DNA from: an uncultured virus (IMG/VR IMGVR_UViG_2061766007_004178)
Lineage: Duplodnaviria; Heunggongvirae; Uroviricota; Caudoviricetes
Strand: one strand, 5' to 3'
Length of the DNA: 15,421 nucleotides
Virus record (IMG/VR): IMGVR_UViG_2061766007_004178
The notes below the pieces were generated by a model. It was not told the origin of the DNA. It saw only the letters and a list, made by a program, of their open reading frames with translations, and did no database searches. How positions within the stretch are numbered: position 1 is the stretch's first letter; the number at the start of each line of letters is the position of its first letter. Positions 3,143 to 10,470 of the stretch are shown here, one piece after another. Position numbers and translations under genes: made by a program.

Positions 3143-4480
3143 CTAAAATTCAAGGTCTGTGCCATCGTTGATGGCGCTATCTATGACCGCTTTGTCCAAT
3201 TCCGTGTGCAAAGCGTNNNNNNNNNNNNNNNNNNNNNNNNNNNNNNNNNNNNNNNNNNNNNNNNNNNNNNNNNNNNNNNNNNNNNCATTGGAACGTTGAT
3301 GTACGGCTTAGCCGTGTCGATCATAATCTGAGGAAGCCTTTTCTCGACTTGGTCGGCATACAGAGCCGGGCATTCGACCAAGACTTCGTCGTGGACGGTG
3401 ATAATCAGATGCGCGTCGAGCTCATTCAGCAATGGGTCTCTGTCGATGTTGATCATGGCGAGCTTCGTGAGGGAAGCGGCTCCGCCTTGGATGCNNNNNN
3501 NNNNNNNNNNNNNNNNNNNNNNNNNNNNNNNNNNNNNNNNNNNNNNNNNNNNNNNNNNNNNNNNNNNNNNNNNNNNNNNNNNNNNNNNNNNNNNNNNNNN
3601 NNNNNNNNNNNNNNNNNNNNNNNNNNNNNNNNNNNNNNNNNNNNNNNNNNNNNNNNNNNNNNNNNNNNNNNNNNNNNNNNNNNNNNNNNNNNNNNNNNNN
3701 NNNNNNNNNNNNNNNNNNNNNNNNNNNNNNNNNNNNNNNNNNNNNNNNNNNNNNNNNNNNNNNNNNNNNNNNNNNNNNNNNNNNNNNNNNNNNNNNNNNN
3801 NNNNNNNNNNNNNNNNNNNNNNNNNNNNNNNNNNNNNNNNNNNNNNNNNNNNNNNNNNNNNNNNNNNNNNNNNNNNNNNNNNNNNNNNNNNNNNNNNNNN
3901 NNNNNNNNNNNNNNNNNNNNNNNNNNNNNNNNNNNNNNNNNNNNNNNNNNNNNNNNNNNNNNNNNNNNNNNNNNNNNNNNNNNNNNNNNNNNNNNNNNNN
4001 NNNNNNNNNNNNNNNNNNNNNNNNNNNNNNNNNNNNNNNNNNNNNNNNNNNNNNNNNNNNNNNNNNNNNNNNNNNNNNNNNNNNNNNNNNNNNNNNNNNN
4101 NNNNNNNNNNNNNNNNNNNNNNNNNNNNNNNNNNNNNNNNNNNNNNNNNNNNNNNNNNNNNNNNNNNNNNNNNNNNNNNNNNNNNNNNNNNNNNNNNNNN
4201 NNNNNNNNNNNNNNNNNNNNNNNNNNNNNNNNNNNNNNNNNNNNNNNNNNNNNNNNNNNCGCTCTTTACCCTGCTTGCTCATGTGGGTCTTGTATCCGCA
4301 AACGATTTGCTTGCCGTTTTCTTCTATCACTGTGCCTTCCGGATAGAATTCGAGGTTCTCTTCGTATTTATTGTGGAATGCGGACTGCGCGATGACCGCG
4401 TAGAGGTCTTGGCCTTGCATATAGGCGTCGATCATCTTCTGGTCTTGACTGACGAACGCTGTTAAACGTGGTTCTTGAGC
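3143..4480 (-). CDS. polA: Family A DNA polymerase, C-terminal part (distal motif A, motif B region in gap, motif C); no start codon upstream of QEPR in its own frame
   Basis: AQEPRLTAFVSQDQKMIDAYMQGQDLY...GKER, then gap, then IQGGAASLTKLAM...LIITVHDEVLVE (motif C)...VPM, then gap, then ALHTELDKAVIDSAINDGTDLEF-TAG (3143-3145). Confidence 0.9.
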
Positions 4481-4542
4481 TAAGCAGAGTAGTCAGAACC
4501 AACAATTTTATATCTTGTTCTTGTATTGATCTTTCTACTCAT
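4480..4542 (-). CDS. 20-codon ORF MSRKINTRTRYKIVGSDYSA* carrying the first half of PolA motif A
   Basis: Strong RBS (AGAAAGGAAGGTGA) before ATG 4542. YKIVGSDYS matches the PolA motif A pattern (e.g. IVSADYSQIELR). Ends in TAG at 4482-4480. Not present in the ORF track. Confidence 0.8.
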   Translation of the reverse strand: MSRKINTRTRYKIVGSDYSA

Positions 4543-4610
4543 AATGGGCATCACCTTCCTTTCTAATTTAAATAATGGTATTTAGTGCTTTACGGCTTTA
4601 TAGCCTAAAA

Positions 4611-6604
4611 TTAAATATGCACGGAATATTCTTTTCTGTCTGCATTATAGACAATATTCTGAATAGTGGCGATTTCGCCGTCATCGACGACCAATTTGTC
4701 ACCGACCGACAGGTCTTTGCAATAAGCGAAGCCATTCGGCGTCTCAACTTCCGTTATCTCTGGGATTATGAACGGCTCATTGTCTTCGACTTCGATCTGC
4801 TTTTCGATTGTCTGAGCTTTGAAAAGCATACGTATTTCAGGGTTATGCGAAGGAATGTTTTGGATGTTGATGCCAGGAAGCTCGACTTTTCTGTTGTTTT
4901 CGTCGAGGTACTTCCATTTTCCGCCTGAAGAATAGCGGCCTGTGTCGGTGCCGGTCGAATTGAGCCTGAATCTGATGCGTCCGTCCGGCCAATGTTCGGC
5001 TAATGCTGGGATAGGGTCGATATAAGTCGATACGAGCTTGGTGATGCCGCGGCGCTGAAGCAATAATCCGCAGAGGCTGGCGGCNNNNNNNNNNNNNNNN
5101 NNNNNNNNNNNNTGCTGCCGTTCAATTCGACGGAAAGCTGGTCTTCGTCGCCGTCGACGGCGTCCATCTCGATGGCTTTGGTCAAAGCCTCCTGCTGTTC
5201 GACCGTGACGCGGCCTTTCAAAGCTTCGGCGATGCCTTTCAAATCGTCTTTTCCGGTTTTGCGGTCTTCCGATTTATAGGCTTCGCTTACGCATAATATG
5301 TCATAGAAAAGAATCGCGAGCTGCTGAGACGCGTTGAGGTTGATAGGGTCTTTGAGCTGCTCGGCCTTAGGCTTCGTCTCTTTGTAGCGTCTGCCTTCTG
5401 AATCGATCAAAGTGAATTGCGCCTCGATTTTTTCCTGCGACATCTTCGATTTCTTGGAGACGTACGTCTTGGTCTTCTCGTTCGCCTCAGGAGTGAGCCT
5501 CCAGGCGTCGATTATGCCTTTGAGCCTGGCCAATTCGGCGTTGATCTTCGCGTCGATCTCAGTAAGGCTGGCGTTGTATTTCTCTCTGAGCTTCTCGCCG
5601 AAGACCTGGTCGATAGGGACGCCTCGCATCTCCATCTTCGCGGTGACCTCGACGATAGGCATCTCGATATTATGGAACAGCCAGCTGAACATCGTGTTCT
5701 CTTCGCCTTCGAAATAAGGCGCTTCCCAAAGGTACATCTTATCGGTCATCATGGAGTCCGTAGCGGCGTAAAGCGCGAAAATCTCCGGCGGAACGAAGAT
5801 ATATGGGATATTCTCGAACAATCCTTCGATGTCGTACTTGACCTGTTTAGGATCGATGAGCGTGACGTAAAGGTATTTCAAGCTCGTCTTCTTGTCGCTG
5901 TATAGGTTCTCGTCTATGAGCCTGGCTCCGACGAGCGTATCCCAATCTGGGGCGAGGGCGACGCCGGTGTTCTTGAGGATGACCTCATAGTCGAACTTGC
6001 CGTTATGCATGATGACCTTGAAGTCGGCGAGCGGGATGAACGGCAGGTCTCCGACGTGGATTTTGAACCACTCGGAATACTGCTGTCCTTGATAGTCAGG
6101 CATCCATGCGCCGTGAATGGCGTTTCTGTACGCGACTATCCTGCGAAGCTGCTTGGCGCAGTCTTCGTACGTCAATTGCCCTGGCAAAAGCTCACCGGTT
6201 TTGTAATCGACGTGCTTTATAGGTATATAAGCCTGCTTCTGGCCAGGAACGTAAAGGCAAAGGCCGACCATTTCGGAATTCATAGCGTCGGTCGTGTTGT
6301 TCGTTTCGGTGTCGACCGCGATCCTGCCTGCTTTGAGGGCCTCGTCTATATAAGCAGAAAAGTCATCAATGTTCCTGATGACCACGGTGTTCGTTCGCTG
6401 CGATCCTAAGACCTTGATGACTTTCTCTGATATGAGCGCAAGTCGTTCTTCGATGGTCAGGTTCTTGGACGCCAAAAGCCTCTCCTCATCGGATTTGGCT
6501 GACCGCTTGCCGGATTCACCGGAAGCTTTTTTGGCGAGCTTCTTAACGTCGGCCTTCGTCTGGCTTAGGTTAATAGCGAAATCTTCTCCGAATAATCCTT
6601 CCAT
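4611..6604 (-). CDS. polA: Family A DNA polymerase, N-terminal part (3'-5' exonuclease, thumb, start of palm) ending in a Hint-like tail
   Basis: ExoI AVDTET, ExoII HNGKFD, ExoIII YAATD, IEMPIVEVTAKMEMRGV, INLNASQQL, KLVSTYID, TGTDTGRYSS, NIQNIPS...IRMLFKA. The two track ORFs (5000-6604 and 4611-5063) join across the N gap at 5085-5112. Confidence 0.93.
4614..4814 (-). other. Degenerate intein N-terminal (Hint-like) segment, 67 aa, at the C-terminus of PolA-N
   Basis: TEVETPNGFAYCKDLSVGDKLVVDDGEIATIQNI resembles the intein N-terminal pattern TxVxTxxGxxxIxDLxVGDxV. There is no Cys/Ser at the expected position 1 and no TxxH block. Confidence 0.6.
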
Positions 6605-7237: not shown

Positions 7238-7842
7238 CTAACCGCGAGCGGATTCGAGCACTTTTTCGAATTCTTCGCGCGTCATTTCGTTAATATCCTT
7301 GCGATTGTCAGGGAACTTTGTCTCGACGATGATTATTCGCTTCGTCAGCTTCTCTTTCAAGGTCTTCAAGAAGCTTCTGCCTGCGGCATCGTTGTCGAAC
7401 ATGGCGTACAGGATGGTCAGGCATGATTTGTTGAGCTGGTCTATCTGATGGTCAGATATCTTGCCTAACGTCGCTATGGCGGGCATGCCGTACTCATAGC
7501 TCGTAAGGCAATCGAATGGGCCTTCCGTGATGACGGCGGTCCTGATATTGTGCTTCATGATGTAATCAAGGCAGTAGACCGGTTTCTCGACGTCTTTGTC
7601 GAGGTAGAACGTTTTCGTGTCTATTGCCCTTTTAGGTAGCATGACCAATTTCCCATGCATGTCGTACGCCGGGAAGATGACCTGTCTGTATTTCGGGTCG
7701 TATCTGACCTTGAATCTCTCGCAGACCTCGCGGGATAGCTTTCTTTTAGACAGGTATGGCGTCCATTTCTGATATTGGTCGAGGATGGATTCGTCGAGCC
7801 CTGGCTTGATGCCTTTGTTCTTGTTCAAGACGATCGGGTCGT
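7238..7842 (-). CDS. dnaG: DNA primase, C-terminal TOPRIM part
   Basis: VIFPAYD...KRAI, ITEGPFDCL, AIATLG, AMFDNDAAG, KDINEM. The 5' part is cut by an N gap. Confidence 0.88.
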
Positions 7843-7852
7843 NNNNNNNNNN

Positions 7853-8268
7853 CTGAAGTTGTCGAAAGCGCTGAAGTCGGTCGTGACGGCCTCTGGCTTA
7901 TCGTAGACAGGGATGTAGTCGATGCTGTATCTAGTGTCTTTTCCGGCTCCCATACGGGTGATCTTGAAGACGTGGGCAGAAAGGTCATTGAAGTCCCTTA
8001 ACTTCGTAGCGAGATCTCTTGAGAAATTGGCTGGTCTCTCCCAAACGACTGGCTTGGCTTCGCTGAAGGCTCCGGTGGTTGGATCCTTGTAGGCGACGAG
8101 CATCTGGACGTAAACGGTCTTGACGGCTTTGCCAATGACGTCATGTCCGGCCGCGGCTGCTTTGCAGAATGGGCAGGTATCGGAATAGGAACCGACCTCA
8201 TTGAGGCAGCTGACTGGGGTGAAACCAGTGCCTAAGCCTTCGAACTTCTTGCCATAGGCTGGCTTATG
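7853..8268 (-). CDS. gp32-like SSB, middle fragment (contig probably misplaced; belongs in the 6614-7068 gap)
   Basis: H...VSCLN...DTCPFC Zn ligands, PVVWER, FKITRMGAGKDTRYSI. These patterns are typical of gp32-like phage SSBs. Confidence 0.7.
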
Positions 8269-8929
8269 NNNNNNNNNNNNNNNNNNNNNNNNNNNNNNNN
8301 NNNNNNNNNNNNNNNNNNNNNNNNNNNNNNNNNNNNNNNNNNNNNNNNNNNNNNNNNNNNNNNNNNNNNNNNNNNNNNNNNNNNNNNNNNNNNNNNNNNN
8401 NNNNNNNNNNNNNNNNNNNNNNNNNNNNNNNNNNNNNNNNNNNNNNNNNNNNNNNNNNNNNNNNNNNNNNNNNNNNNNNNNNNNNNNNNNNNNNNNNNNN
8501 NNNNNNNNNNNNNNNNNNNNNNNNNNNNNNNNNNNNNNNNNNNNNNNNNNNNNNNNNNNNNNNNNNNNNNNNNNNNNNNNNNNNNNNNNNNNNNNNNNNN
8601 NNNNNNNNNNNNNNNNNNNNNNNNNNNNNNNNNNNNNNNNNNNNNNNNNNNNNNNNNNNNNNNNNNNNNNNNNNNNNNNNNNNNNNNNNNNNNNNNNNNN
8701 NNNNNNNNNNNNNNNNNNNNNNNNNNNNNNNNNNNNNNNNNNNNNNNNNNNNNNNNNNNNNNNNNNNNNNNNNNNNNNNNNNNNNNNNNNNNNNNNNNNN
8801 NNNNNNNNNNNNNNNNNNNNNNNNNNNNNNNNNNNNNNNNNNNNNNNNNNNNNNNNNNNNNNNNNNNNNNNNNNNNNNNNNNNNNNNNNNNNNNNNNNNN
8901 NNNNNNNNNNNNNNNNNNNNNNNNNNNNN

Positions 8930-10097
8930 AGCAAATGAACTTGCCTAAGTTGAAATCGGCCTTATAGACCAGCTTTCCGGTTCCGCCGTCTCTCGATTTG
9001 GTGATATCCATGATCAGGCGGTCGTCTTTGACCCTGGTCTTCTCTTTGTCCTCGTATTCGCGCTCTCTGTCGAGCATGATTACGCAAGTCGCGTCTTGGC
9101 CGATGCGATCAGACAGACCGATTTGGGTCGTGTCTTTCTCGCCATCTTCGTTCTTGGTTCTGTTCATCTGAGCGACCGATATGATCGGGATGCGCTCCAT
9201 GACCTGAAGATTCTTGACAGCCTTCGAGATATTGGCGACCTTCTCATGCGTCGTCGTCGCTTTGCTCGTGTCTTCGAGCAAGGAGTATTGGTCGATGAAC
9301 AATATGTCGAGCTTCTCTTTGTCGACGAAGGCCTTGAGGGCCATTACTGTTGCAGGTCCGGCGATATCGTTAGGCGTAAGCACCTTTATCGTGCCGCCAT
9401 TATAAATATTCGTCTTCAAAGTCTCAAGATATCGCTTATATTGGGACTGGACTGAGGTGTCGATGCCTCTAGTGATGATATTGTTGTTGATGCCACCTAA
9501 GAGGGTGTCGAGACGATAGCCGACCTTATCGACGGCCATTTCGCCCGAATATATGCCGACCCTCAGGCCTTGCTTGGCTGCGCTTGCGGCCATGAGCAGC
9601 AACGTCCATGATTTGCCGATGCCGGTTCTGGCTGCGATGACCATGTTCTCATTCTCGCGGTCGATGCCGCCGATGATGCGATCCAGCTCATCGAAGCCGG
9701 TCCTGACGTAATATTTGTCGTGATTGGCGACCCTTTCGAGATAATGGTCGTATCTGCTGGTGTCTTGGAACAGGTCATGCGATTGGATGGCCGAGCCCTT
9801 ATGCAGGCCTTCGACCGCCTTCATCATGTAATCTTTGGCTTCGGCAGATTTGTCTTCTTCGACGAGCTTTTTGACGTTGTTGAACGTCGTGGCTATATAA
9901 TTCGTGTTGTAGTCATTATACAGCTGTTCGATCAAATAGCTATCCGGTTCATTGACGTCTTGGATGTCGAATTCGCGGAAGATGCCCAAAAACGTGAGCC
10001 TGTCTGGGACGGTTCCGTATTTCTCGTAGTGGTTCTTGATGTAGTTGAACTCGGCCTTGTAGTTGAAGAAGAAATCTTCAGTCAGATTGTTCAGCTC
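8930..10097 (-). CDS. dnaB: DnaB-family replicative helicase (both ends in gaps)
   Basis: TGFDELDRIIGG, AARTGIGKS (Walker A), YSGEM, LFIDQYSLL, VAQMNR, SDRIGQDA, ITKSRDG. Confidence 0.92.
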
Positions 10098-10392
10098 NNN
10101 NNNNNNNNNNNNNNNNNNNNNNNNNNNNNNNNNNNNNNNNNNNNNNNNNNNNNNNNNNNNNNNNNNNNNNNNNNNNNNNNNNNNNNNNNNNNNNNNNNNN
10201 NNNNNNNNNNNNNNNNNNNNNNNNNNNNNNNNNNNNNNNNNNNNNNNNNNNNNNNNNNNNNNNNNNNNNNNNNNNNNNNNNNNNNNNNNNNNNNNNNNNN
10301 NNNNNNNNNNNNNNNNNNNNNNNNNNNNNNNNNNNNNNNNNNNNNNNNNNNNNNNNNNNNNNNNNNNNNNNNNNNNNNNNNNNNNNNNNNNN

Positions 10393-10470
10393 CTGAACGA
10401 CGACAACCCAGAGTACAGCGCAAGCAGATACGAGATGCCTGCGTCTAACGCAGAAGGACAGAATTTCTAA
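10393..10470 (+). CDS. Probable C-terminal tail of the helicase on an inverted contig
   Basis: LNDDNPEYSASRYEMPASNAEGQNF-TAA overlaps the primase ATG (TAATG). This matches the helicase-primase order of the minus-strand operon. Confidence 0.55.
   Translation: MNDDNPEYSASRYEMPASNAEGQNF

What the first reader, a model, noticed from the sequence alone, without database searches (positions are those of the whole stretch)
4469..4542. Candidate programmed ribosomal bypass (stop-hop) inside the catalytic motif A of a phage DNA polymerase
Seen: the minus strand reads GGT TCT GAC TAC TCT GCT TA GCT CAA GAA CCA CGT. The 20-codon ORF (strong RBS, ATG 4542) gives ...YKIVGSDYSA, then hits TAG. The rest of PolA (QEPRLTAF...) is in another frame that has no start codon or Asp upstream of QEPR. 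Take-off from GCT (4485-4483) and landing on the identical GCT 5 nt on (4480-4478) skips the stop and gives DYSAQEPR, with exactly the DYSxxExR spacing of motif A. A plain -1 shift would add two residues (DYSALAQEPR). Known: motif A Asp is essential, and matched take-off/landing codons flanking a UAG is the logic of T4 gene 60 bypassing. Inference: recoding is obligatory for active polymerase and could throttle its level or sense release-factor/tRNA status.
Basis: partly seen in the sequence, partly recalled or inferred. Interest (0 to 1): 0.9.

Follow-up and report, generated by a model that had tools for sequence, protein, structure and literature searches.

The report
Short ribosome hop in split phage polymerase
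A rumen phage's DNA polymerase gene is cut in two and carries five untranslatable bases inside its catalytic motif, and about two dozen related phages carry similar 5-12-base gaps that only make sense if the ribosome hops over them, as it does in the textbook T4 gene 60 case.

Summary
On the minus strand a 20-codon ORF (ATG 4542) ends ...GSDYSA at TAG 4482-4480. The rest of PolA (QEPRLTAF...) follows 5 nt out of register, and GCT is repeated on both sides of the gap.

It is not an assembly error or a one-off. The same 5-nt gap occurs in two distant relatives and in a contig from another study. Of 61 distinct related motif-A sequences, 25 carry 5-12-nt gaps at four positions inside DYSxQEPR. 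All 25 lie in split PolA genes. None of the 18 unsplit genes has a gap.

All 16 gap types begin with a stop codon directly after the last sense codon. In 14 of 16 the last three bases match the first two bases of that codon. Gap lengths cover all three frames, and both flanks evolve mostly at third codon positions. A second set of gaps sits in motif B.

In relatives the spacer between the gene halves holds homing-endonuclease genes. The window has only 68 nt there.

Best reading: a gene-60-like mobile cassette (C-terminal extension, endonuclease, strong RBS, short N-terminal ORF, coding gap). Its gap is crossed by a peptidyl-tRNA stop-hop and probably protects the endonuclease's target site. 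Translation itself is untested. I found no description of this in print.

The parts
5113..6604 (-). PolA N fragment, first visible part (3'-5' exonuclease domain and start of the polymerase domain), from ATG 6604 to the masked run
   Evidence: Pfam DNA_pol_A_exo1, E 3.3e-10. tblastn with an unsplit relative covers residues 5-496 at 75% identity.
5085..5112 (.). Masked run of 28 N inside the N fragment. The reading frame differs on its two sides: 29 nt lie between the last and first readable codons.
   Evidence: The content cannot be read, so the frame change is unexplained.
4611..5084 (-). PolA N fragment, last part. It holds the fingers/palm segment (..GINIQNIPSHNPEIRMLFKA) and the extension listed in the next part, and ends at TAA 4613-4611.
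   Evidence: Pfam DNA_pol_A, E 3.7e-7.
4614..4787 (-). C-terminal extension (CTE) of the N fragment: a small all-beta domain, part of the cassette
   Evidence: All-beta model with pLDDT 81-91. The top Foldseek hits are inteins, but weakly (E 0.08, prob 0.97-0.99). It is homologous to the extension found at a second cassette site in motif B of relative L076 (40% identity over 50 aa, E 2e-8). HMM hits occur at motif-A, motif-B and exonuclease-domain split sites of relatives.
4543..4610 (-). 68-nt spacer between the two PolA genes. It holds an extended Shine-Dalgarno sequence, AGGAAGGTGAT (4560-4550), and no endonuclease gene.
   Evidence: In relatives the same spacer holds GIY-YIG or LAGLIDADG endonuclease ORFs, or 570-624-aa ORFs with DUF7487 matches. 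GGAGGTGATG-type RBSs recur in gap-bearing relatives.
4483..4542 (-). Start of the C fragment: 20 codons, MSRKINTRTRYKIVGSDYSA. It carries the motif A Asp and ends at the take-off codon GCT 4485-4483.
   Evidence: It aligns with ..TRYKIIGSDYSA of unsplit relatives.
4478..4482 (-). 5-nt coding gap TAGCT: stop TAG 4482-4480 in the A site at take-off, landing codon GCT 4480-4478
   Evidence: An identical TAGCT gap occurs in L042/L068 and L076, where the take-off codon is GCC and neighbouring codons differ synonymously. The gap is kept in the X3 contig.
4260..4477 (-). C fragment after the gap: QEPRLTAFVSQDQKMIDAY... up to the masked run, which begins at motif B
   Evidence: Pfam DNA_pol_A. 88% identity to residues 694-767 of an unsplit relative.
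3181..3494 (-). C-terminal end of PolA (motif C region, ..IITVHDEVLVECP..), read in a different frame from 4260-4477, across 765 masked bases. Ends at TAG 3183-3181.
   Evidence: Pfam DNA_pol_A, E 4.4e-13..

Best explanation
The window holds the only DNA polymerase type of an uncultured large rumen phage. A mobile homing-endonuclease cassette has 'fractured' this family-A polymerase.

The cassette adds a small beta-domain and a stop to the upstream half. In relatives it carries an endonuclease gene, which is lost here. It restarts the downstream half with a very strong ribosome-binding site and about 10 new residues. It also places a short untranslatable gap inside the DNA that encodes catalytic motif A.

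To make the C fragment, the ribosome translates 20 codons to GCU (Ala) and meets UAG in the A site. The peptidyl-tRNA-Ala unpairs and re-pairs with the identical GCU 5 nt downstream. Decoding resumes at CAA, giving an exact DYSAQEPR motif. The two polymerase halves then assemble without a covalent link.

By analogy with T4 mobA/gene 60, the gap most likely exists because it breaks the endonuclease's recognition site in the most conserved DNA of the gene without adding residues to the active site.

Shown: the anatomy, the conservation, the codon-matching rule, and the link to split genes and endonucleases.

Inferred: that hopping occurs and how efficient it is, the immunity function, and non-covalent assembly.
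For: (1) Continuous relatives fix the expected protein. 18 of 18 distinct unsplit relatives read G[S/A]D[Y/F]SxQE[P/L]R without interruption.

(2) The gap recurs. 25 of 61 distinct motif-A sequences carry a gap, all 25 in split genes (25 of 43 split, 0 of 18 unsplit; Fisher p 8e-6).

(3) There is a rule. In 16 of 16 motif-A gap types a stop codon follows the last sense codon (TAG 9, TAA 5, TGA 2). In 14 of 16 the last triplet of the gap shares its first two bases with that codon (p 1.5e-15 against 1/16). Lengths of 5-12 nt fall in all three frames (6, 6 and 4 types for length mod 3 = 0, 1 and 2). Skipping the gap always restores the exact motif.

(4) Both sides are under purifying selection. 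For the window against L042, differences at codon positions 1/2/3 are 3/4/8 upstream and 11/4/33 downstream. L048 (+9 gap) and L127 (+8 gap) differ downstream by 12 synonymous and 1 non-synonymous codon changes, although the gap length, and so the frame, differs. All 5 X3 substitutions listed's table lie at third positions of the frame on their own side of the gap (4495 upstream; 4475, 4448, 4415 and 4403 downstream). The run summary counts 6 substitutions.

(5) The same 5-nt gap is found in three carriers that fall in three separate well-supported clades.

(6) A complete 223,464-bp relative (L042's record: terminal repeats, CheckV 100%) has this split, gapped PolA as its only hit to PolA, PolB or DnaE families.

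(7) Cassette context. In relatives the spacers hold GIY-YIG ORFs (L089, L090, L098, L129), a LAGLIDADG ORF (L099) and long DUF7487-type ORFs (L082, L124, L127). 8 of these 9 ORF-bearing loci, counting L091's unclassified ORF, have a gap. L002's spacer keeps the 3' remnant of a GIY-YIG gene.

(8) The architecture repeats at motif B in six relatives: extension, endonuclease-sized insert, GGAGGTGATG RBS, a ~33-codon ORF and a 6-12-nt gap.

(9) TAG is an ordinary stop in three other genes of the window.

(10) A hairpin is predicted around the window's gap (-9.3 kcal/mol, z -3.0).
Against: - There is no protein, ribosome-profiling or RNA evidence. No RNA run holding the stretch was listed, and only contigs, not raw reads, could be laid.
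- Two of 16 motif-A types land on poorly matched codons (CCG to TCG, GCT to GTA). At motif B only 3 of 6 match in the first two bases, and L093 and L076 match poorly.
- Hairpin support is uneven. An exhaustive test of the free gap bases gave p 0.016-0.06 for the 6 gaps after QE or QEP, but nothing for the 8 gaps after DYS or DYSA (combined p 0.016).
- 18 of 43 split genes have no gap, and one endonuclease-bearing locus (L082) is continuous, so the gap is not required for a split gene.
- Gap position does not track endonuclease family.
- The window itself has no endonuclease, so any immunity role would be historical here.
- Synthetic short stop-hops in E. coli are reported as inefficient (recalled, not checked here).
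- Two more frame changes of this gene lie in masked stretches and cannot be explained.
Confidence: 0.78

Rival explanations
1. Three-piece enzyme. The ribosome terminates at UAG and releases a 20-residue peptide that carries the motif A Asp. The rest of the C fragment is made by re-initiation near the stop. The pieces then assemble non-covalently.
For: The gene is already split once and evidently tolerates that. The stop is always present. Ribosomes can slide and re-initiate after termination (PMC11194080, abstract only, from the listing).
Against: There is no ATG/GTG/TTG between the upstream stop of the downstream frame and QEPR in the window. This reading gives no reason for the landing triplet to match the take-off codon (14 of 16). 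A free 20-mer would have to supply a catalytic beta-strand. The break point moves between four positions within 5 residues, which a structural split would not require.
Confidence: 0.07
2. The 5-12 nt are removed from, or skipped in, the RNA by processing, editing or polymerase slippage, so the mRNA is continuous and translation is ordinary.
For: Many gaps lie in predicted hairpins, some closed by a GTAA loop (L002, L076 motif B), which could in principle be recognised by an RNA enzyme. No RNA data could be examined.
Against: No known bacterial or phage system excises 5-12 nt. This reading does not explain the obligatory stop codon directly after an in-frame codon, or the synonymous landing codon. 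Hairpin evidence is absent for the gaps after DYS and DYSA, including the window's type.
Confidence: 0.05
3. Inactive remnant. The gap is a disabling indel in a decaying gene, or an assembly or sequencing artefact.
For: The window's PolA shows two further frame changes across masked runs. The assembly is metagenomic.
Against: The same gap occurs in three divergent lineages and in a contig from another study. There are 25 distinct gapped loci, with third-position-dominated divergence on both sides. Downstream ORFs stay open for 290-407 codons where the locus allows it. A complete 223-kb relative has no other polymerase.
Confidence: 0.02
4. Conventional recoding: a -1 or +2 frameshift in the window (giving DYSALAQEPR or DYSAAQEPR), and stop-codon readthrough for the in-frame gaps of relatives.
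For: The frame relation in the window (-1/+2) would allow it. The in-frame 6-, 9- and 12-nt gaps could be read through.
Against: There is no slippery heptamer at the site. Products would carry 1-4 extra residues inside DYSxQEPR, a spacing that is invariant in all 36 continuous relatives. Three different mechanisms would be needed for one family. Close relatives change gap length by single bases (7, 8, 9 and 10 nt after QE) while staying under purifying selection.
Confidence: 0.04

Closest known systems
Phage T4 gene 60 translational bypass within the mobA homing-endonuclease cassette (Manning & Atkins, bioRxiv 10.1101/2022.08.31.505936, abstract and passages read; the mobility experiment is cited there as their ref. 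19)
   Same: - An essential replication gene is split by a free-standing endonuclease gene.
- The cassette adds a C-terminal extension to ORF1 and a short N-terminal ORF to ORF2.
- A non-coding gap follows within a few dozen codons of the new start.
- A stop codon follows the take-off codon, and take-off and landing codons match.
- There is stem-loop potential at take-off.
- The gap lies in highly conserved DNA.
- Relatives exist that have lost the endonuclease, lost the gap, or re-fused the ORF while keeping the extensions. Here these are the 'fused with extension' relatives such as L003.
   Different: - The gene is a family-A DNA polymerase (motifs A and B), not topoisomerase II. That paper states the known elements are exclusively in Topo2L.
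- Gaps are 5-12 nt, not 50 nt.
- There are at least 16 gap types at four codon positions, plus a second site.
- Endonucleases of several families (GIY-YIG, LAGLIDADG, DUF7487-type) are found instead of the HNH MobA.
- Take-off is at codon 18-36 rather than 46.
- The extension is a Hint-like beta-domain.
- No sequence similarity to the T4 cassette was tested.
- Nothing here is shown experimentally.
Synthetic short 'stop-hops' in E. coli, with matched codons flanking a stop (described in Atkins et al. 2016, PMC5009743, passages read; original work cited there as ref. 54)
   Same: The codon-stop-codon geometry is the same, with peptidyl-tRNA re-pairing a few bases downstream. The window's GCU-UA-GCU is a +5 hop and L092's UCU-UAG-UCU a +6 hop.
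   Different: Those were engineered constructs. The review says that no natural occurrences of in-frame stop hopping are known. Here the hops would be natural, obligatory for an essential enzyme and evolutionarily conserved.
Mitochondrial bypass elements ('byps') of Magnusiomyces capitatus (as summarised in PMC5009743, passages read)
   Same: Many short inserts in coding genes are rendered harmless by bypassing. Take-off and landing matching is imperfect in some cases. The inserts behave as mobile or spreading elements.
   Different: Those are in mitochondrial ribosomes, with an unused sense codon rather than a stop in the A site, and are described there as independent of mRNA context. Here the setting is bacterial translation, a stop is always present, and the gaps are tied to endonuclease cassettes at two specific motifs.
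'Fractured genes' with split inteins and free-standing homing endonucleases (Dassa et al. 2009, PMC2677866, passages read)
   Same: A replication gene is broken into two adjacent ORFs with an endonuclease gene between them. The upstream half ends in a domain whose best, though weak, structural matches are inteins, including gp41-1.
   Different: The extension is only about 60 residues. It has no conserved N-terminal Cys/Ser. The downstream ORF has only about 10 extra residues and no conserved Asn plus nucleophile. Protein splicing is therefore not expected. Fractured genes were not reported to carry coding gaps.

Membership tests
Gene-60-type programmed translational bypass | A non-coding gap interrupts an ORF whose continuous form is known from relatives | tested here: met
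   18 of 18 unsplit and 18 of 43 split relatives read DYSxQEPR continuously. Skipping the gap restores it exactly in all 25 gapped loci.
Gene-60-type programmed translational bypass | [quoted passage not shown] | tested here: met
   In the window, GCT and GCT are identical. Across 16 motif-A types, 6 pairs are identical and 14 share the first two bases. At motif B, 3 of 6 do.
Gene-60-type programmed translational bypass | A stop (or slow) codon immediately 3' of the take-off codon | tested here: met
   22 of 22 gap types (16 at motif A, 6 at motif B).
Gene-60-type programmed translational bypass | A take-off stem-loop | tested here: inconclusive
   The window has a predicted hairpin of -9.3 kcal/mol, z -3.0. 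The enumeration test supports selection for pairing only in the gaps after QE and QEP.
Gene-60-type programmed translational bypass | A nascent-peptide signal that promotes take-off | not testable with these tools
   A basic K.(I/V)KTRT.YK peptide precedes every gap. It is equally present in gapless and unsplit relatives.
Gene-60-type programmed translational bypass | A gap of about 50 nt with an internal Shine-Dalgarno-like element | tested here: not met
   Gaps are 5-12 nt.
Gene-60-type programmed translational bypass | A joined protein product demonstrated | not testable with these tools
   No expression data. No RNA run was listed.
MobA-type mobile cassette (homing endonuclease plus bypass) | An endonuclease gene lies between the halves of the split host gene, with cassette-encoded C- and N-terminal extensions | tested here: met
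   Met in relatives. The window keeps the extensions and the RBS but has only a 68-nt spacer.
MobA-type mobile cassette (homing endonuclease plus bypass) | Homology to MobA (HNH) and insertion in topoisomerase II | tested here: not met
   The host gene is PolA. The endonucleases found are GIY-YIG, LAGLIDADG and DUF7487-type. No comparison with MobA itself was run.
MobA-type mobile cassette (homing endonuclease plus bypass) | The gap protects the target site from the cassette's endonuclease | not testable with these tools
   Inference only. Supporting hint: a distant PolA (L064) has a GIY-YIG ORF, flanked by sub-threshold group I intron matches, inserted exactly after DYS.
Split intein ('fractured gene') | Catalytic Cys/Ser at the intein start, and a terminal Asn followed by Cys/Ser/Thr | tested here: not met
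   There is no invariant Cys/Ser at the start of the extension. The residue before TRT in the downstream ORF varies (N, R, K, Q).
-1 / +1 programmed ribosomal frameshifting | A slippery site with overlapping re-pairing in a single fixed frame change | tested here: not met
   There is no slippery heptamer. Relatives need shifts in all three frames.

The most novel reading that the evidence does not exclude
A previously undescribed family of mobile homing-endonuclease cassettes repeatedly invades the catalytic motifs A and B of the family-A DNA polymerase of large rumen phages. These cassettes carry their own short coding gaps. Host ribosomes cross the gaps by natural 5-12-nt stop-hops. This would be the first natural short-range stop-hops and the second independent bacterial or phage bypass system after T4 gene 60. 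Gap length and position evolve freely because hopping does not depend on frame.
Probability: 0.72. Interest if true: 0.92.

Novelty: new variant of a known kind. Interest (0 to 1): 0.87.

Why it matters
Programmed bypassing in bacteria and phages has rested on one case, T4 gene 60. A 2022 survey found homologues only in topoisomerase genes and called the bypass cassette unique. The 2016 recoding review states that shorter counterparts with matched landing codons had long been presumed, and that no natural stop-hop was known.

This locus and its relatives would supply more than 20 natural sequence variants, covering different codons, stops, gap lengths and hairpins. These are ready for reporter assays, so the minimal requirements for hopping become directly testable.

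It also extends the idea that a homing endonuclease protects its own target with an untranslatable insert to a second gene and to several endonuclease families.

It has a practical side too. Gene callers will annotate these essential polymerases as broken.

Tried and rejected
- **Group I intron or other known RNA at the site.** Rfam at gathering threshold found nothing in the window or in L064, L002, L007, L048 and L042.
- **Cultured relatives.** blastn against 50,697 phage records found no match. tblastn found only matches under 60% identity (listed rows 36.5-37.1%) to crAss-like and Clostridium phage PolA.
- **Whole genome of the window.** None is held.
- **Earlier findings of this scan.** None.
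- **Expression.** No RNA holder was listed. Only Logan contigs, not raw reads, could be laid, so removal at the RNA level could not be examined.
- **tRNAs in the window.** None, so no phage suppressor or special tRNA is visible here.
- **Alternative genetic code.** Rejected for the window: TAG, TAA and TGA all end ordinary genes, and reading TAG as Gln leaves the frame wrong.
- **Split-intein trans-splicing.** Rejected: no catalytic residues.
- **Hairpin as a universal feature.** Not supported for the gaps after DYS and DYSA.
- **Link between endonuclease family and gap position.** None is apparent.
- **Promoter and terminator scan of 4300-5100.** No more sites than in shuffles.
- **Literature.** Five searches found no report of bypassing in a DNA polymerase gene. 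That library lacks most subscription journals.
Full report
**1. What is in the window**

The minus strand of the 15.4-kb window (49% G+C) is a phage replication module. It encodes a RecA-like protein, RecU, a sliding-clamp homologue, PolA, a Toprim primase, a DnaA/DnaC-like ATPase, dUTPase and FolD. Fourteen stretches are masked as N.

PolA (exonuclease plus polymerase domains) starts at ATG 6604. It is not one ORF.
- The N fragment runs to TAA 4613-4611. After ..NIPSHNPEIRMLFKA it carries about 60 residues that ordinary Pol I enzymes lack.
- After a 68-nt spacer comes AGGAAGGTGAT, an extended Shine-Dalgarno sequence. ATG 4542 follows and opens MSRKINTRTRYKIVGSDYSA, which stops at TAG 4482-4480.
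- QEPRLTAF... continues 5 nt out of register.
- GCT stands immediately before the stop (4485-4483) and again at 4480-4478.

**2. It is not an artefact or a one-off**

A Logan contig of run X2 spans 4416-5080 with no difference. X2 may be the source sample. A contig of run X3, from another study, spans 4390-4563 with 6 substitutions and no gap, so it keeps the 5 nt. The 5 X3 substitutions listed's table all fall at third codon positions of the frame on their own side of the gap: 4495 upstream, and 4475, 4448, 4415 and 4403 downstream (coordinates).

Scans of IMG/VR and JGI/ENA metagenome contigs gave 144 loci. Two divergent relatives have the identical TAGCT gap: L042/L068 (a 223-kb phage) and L076. 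In both, the take-off codon is GCC and the neighbouring codons differ synonymously.

**3. The family-wide pattern**

I extracted every G[STA]D[YFW]S site from all loci and removed duplicates, which left 61 distinct sequences.

| Gene state | Motif A continuous | Motif A gapped |
|---|---|---|
| Unsplit | 18 | 0 |
| Split | 18 (one of them, L134, is odd for another reason) | 25 |

Fisher p is 8e-6.

The gaps fall at four positions of DYS|x|QE|P|R and form 16 sequence types:
- After DYS: tagTCT, taggTCA, taagTCT, taacgtTCT, tgaagagTCG, tagcgaaagTCA (and variants), taggtaaggTCT.
- After DYSA: taGCT (the window's type), taaaaaaGTA.
- After QE: tagcGAG, tgactGAG, tagctGAT, tagcctGAG, tagccctGAA.
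- After QEP: taaggtTCG, taaggttgCCT.

Four features hold across the types:
- In all 16 the gap begins with a stop codon in frame with the upstream ORF.
- In 14 of 16 the final triplet shares its first two bases with the preceding sense codon (6 are identical). The binomial p is 1.5e-15 against 1/16.
- Gap lengths of 5-12 nt fall in all three frames.
- Skipping the gap restores the exact motif spacing every time.

The two exceptions are CCG to TCG and GCT to GTA. They could still pair through G-U pairs; that is my inference.

Downstream ORFs stay open for 290-407 codons wherever the locus is long enough. The exceptions are cases where a second cassette interrupts them.

**4. Selection**

Among gap carriers, divergence on both sides of the gap is dominated by third positions and synonymous changes. 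Close relatives differ in gap length, and so in frame relation, while remaining under purifying selection downstream.
- L048 (+9) against L127 (+8): 12 synonymous and 1 non-synonymous change in 45 codons.
- L106 (+10), L089 (+8) and L104 (+7): 15-18 synonymous against 4 non-synonymous.

Only a frame-independent way of crossing the gap fits this.

The complete genome that contains L042 (223,464 bp, terminal repeats, CheckV 100%) has no PolA other than the split, gapped one. It has no PolB or DnaE hit either.

**5. Context: a mobile cassette**

In relatives the spacer between the halves holds endonuclease-type ORFs:
- GIY-YIG ORFs: L089, L090, L098, L129.
- A LAGLIDADG ORF: L099.
- 570-624-aa ORFs with DUF7487 and sub-threshold REase_MTES_1575 matches: L082, L124, L127.
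- An unclassified 322-aa ORF: L091.

Eight of these nine loci carry a gap. L002's 220-nt spacer retains the last ~20 codons of a GIY-YIG gene. L048 and L127 are collinear except for a 1.95-kb endonuclease segment.

The extension at the end of the N fragment is a confident all-beta domain (pLDDT 81-91). Its best, but weak, structural matches are inteins (E about 0.08, prob 0.97-0.99). It lacks intein catalytic residues.

The same extension (40% identity, E 2e-8; HMM hits), the same GGAGGTGATG-type RBS and a ~33-codon ORF recur at a second split just before motif B in six relatives. There too a 6-12-nt gap starting with a stop interrupts ..LxL|AATYGMSG. Half of these have well-matched landing codons. 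A third split, without a gap, lies in the exonuclease domain of L124.

On a tree built from the flanks only (56 rows, quick method), the states 'no extension', 'fused with extension', 'split' and the gap types are interleaved among near-identical polymerases. The three +5 carriers sit in three separate starred clades. This is the behaviour of a mobile element.

A distant PolA (L064) has a GIY-YIG ORF, flanked by sub-threshold group I intron matches, inserted exactly after DYS. Motif-A DNA is therefore a homing site in its own right.

**6. Mechanism proposed**

Shown: the anatomy and the rules above.

Inferred: at GCU with UAG in the A site, peptidyl-tRNA-Ala unpairs, the mRNA slips 5 nt, the anticodon re-pairs with the second GCU, and CAA is decoded next. 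The 20-residue nascent chain is still inside the exit tunnel at that point.

Possible stimulators:
- The stop codon itself.
- A predicted hairpin pairing GGUUCUGACUA with UAG-C-UC-A-AGAACC (-9.3 kcal/mol, z -3.0).
- The very strong RBS, which could compensate for low efficiency.

The hairpin evidence is solid only for the gaps after QE and QEP.

The likely reason for the gap follows the T4 mobA/gene 60 logic described by Manning & Atkins (passages read). An insert in the endonuclease's recognition DNA gives self-immunity. In a catalytic motif, only an untranslated insert is tolerated. In the window the endonuclease is gone, and the split plus the gap remain as a functional scar.

**7. Comparison with what is known**

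Manning & Atkins (2022 preprint) state that the known bypass cassettes are exclusively in Topo2L and that the cassette 'remains unique'. Atkins et al. 2016 state that shorter counterparts with matched landing sites had long been presumed, and that no natural in-frame stop hop is known. Dassa et al. 2009 describe fractured genes with split inteins and considered bypassing only as an unlikely alternative.

Five full-text searches found nothing on bypassing in a DNA polymerase. That library misses most subscription journals.

I therefore file this as a new variant of a known kind. It works like gene 60, but it is not a member of that element family: the gene, the gap length and the endonucleases differ, and homology was not tested.

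**8. Open points**

- No expression or protein data exist.
- Two further frame changes of this PolA lie inside masked runs. One spans 29 nt across 5085-5112. The other is within 3495-4259, which begins exactly at motif B. They could hide more gaps, but cannot be read.
- Poorly matched landings (L090, L093, L076 at motif B) and gapless endonuclease-bearing L082 show that the rules are not absolute.

Noticed in passing
window 5085-5112 (masked) with flanks 5113-5141 and 5070-5084: The PolA N fragment changes reading frame across this 28-N run. 29 nt separate the last readable codon (AGC) from the first (GCC), a +2/-1 offset. Close relatives are in one frame here. This could be another short gap, an indel, or a masking effect.
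   Followed up: partly
window 3495-4259 (masked): The masked run begins exactly where motif B (RRxxGKxLxLAATYGMSG) should start. The frame differs on its two sides (net +1), and about 150 nt more than in relative L003 lie between them. In six relatives motif B carries a second split and/or a 6-12-nt stop-led gap, so the window may hide a second one.
   Followed up: partly
L076:1150-1560, L124:5020-5456, L096:4520-4700, L093:4520-4700, L104:4520-4700, L110:4620-4800: A second cassette site lies before motif B: a beta-domain extension plus stop, an insert of up to 1.3 kb, a GGAGGTGATG RBS, and an ORF M..IKVKSPAKILNK.GKERRS.GK.L.L followed by a gap. The gaps are CTT tgatgCTA, CTT tagggaaggCTC, TTG tgacaaaacTTG, CTG tagGTG, ACG taagtagTCA and CTT tagggccGTA.
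   Followed up: partly
L124:1-1830: A third split of the same PolA lies in the exonuclease domain, after ..ALYASHDAGMTY... It has the same kind of beta-domain extension and a 238-aa ORF with a ..ELNAHWTH.. motif in the spacer. No gap follows it.
   Followed up: no
L064:5725-6786: A distant PolA (about 22-30% identity) has a ~1-kb insert exactly between DYS and QEPR. The insert contains a GIY-YIG ORF flanked by sub-threshold group I intron matches (RF00028: 25.4 and 19.8 bits against a gathering score of 50).
   Followed up: partly
L134:2669-2671: An in-frame TAG stands at the conserved Gln of ..NFQNIP.. in an otherwise intact PolA. This suggests the phage reads TAG as Gln. It is unrelated to the gaps.
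   Followed up: no
L087:490-1023: In one split, gapless relative the spacer between the PolA halves holds a NADAR-domain ORF (Pfam E 1.5e-48) instead of an endonuclease.
   Followed up: no
window 4549-4560 and the RBS regions of L042, L048, L096, L104, L110, L124: Gap-bearing cassettes at both sites share an unusually long Shine-Dalgarno sequence, (A)GGAGGTGATG, 6-8 nt before the ATG. Gapless split relatives mostly have ordinary GGAGG or GAGG sites.
   Followed up: partly
window 7825-8934 / 8232-10406: Two long minus-strand ORFs overlap across the 661-N masked run 8269-8929. This means either two genes or another frame change, and it cannot be read.
   Followed up: no
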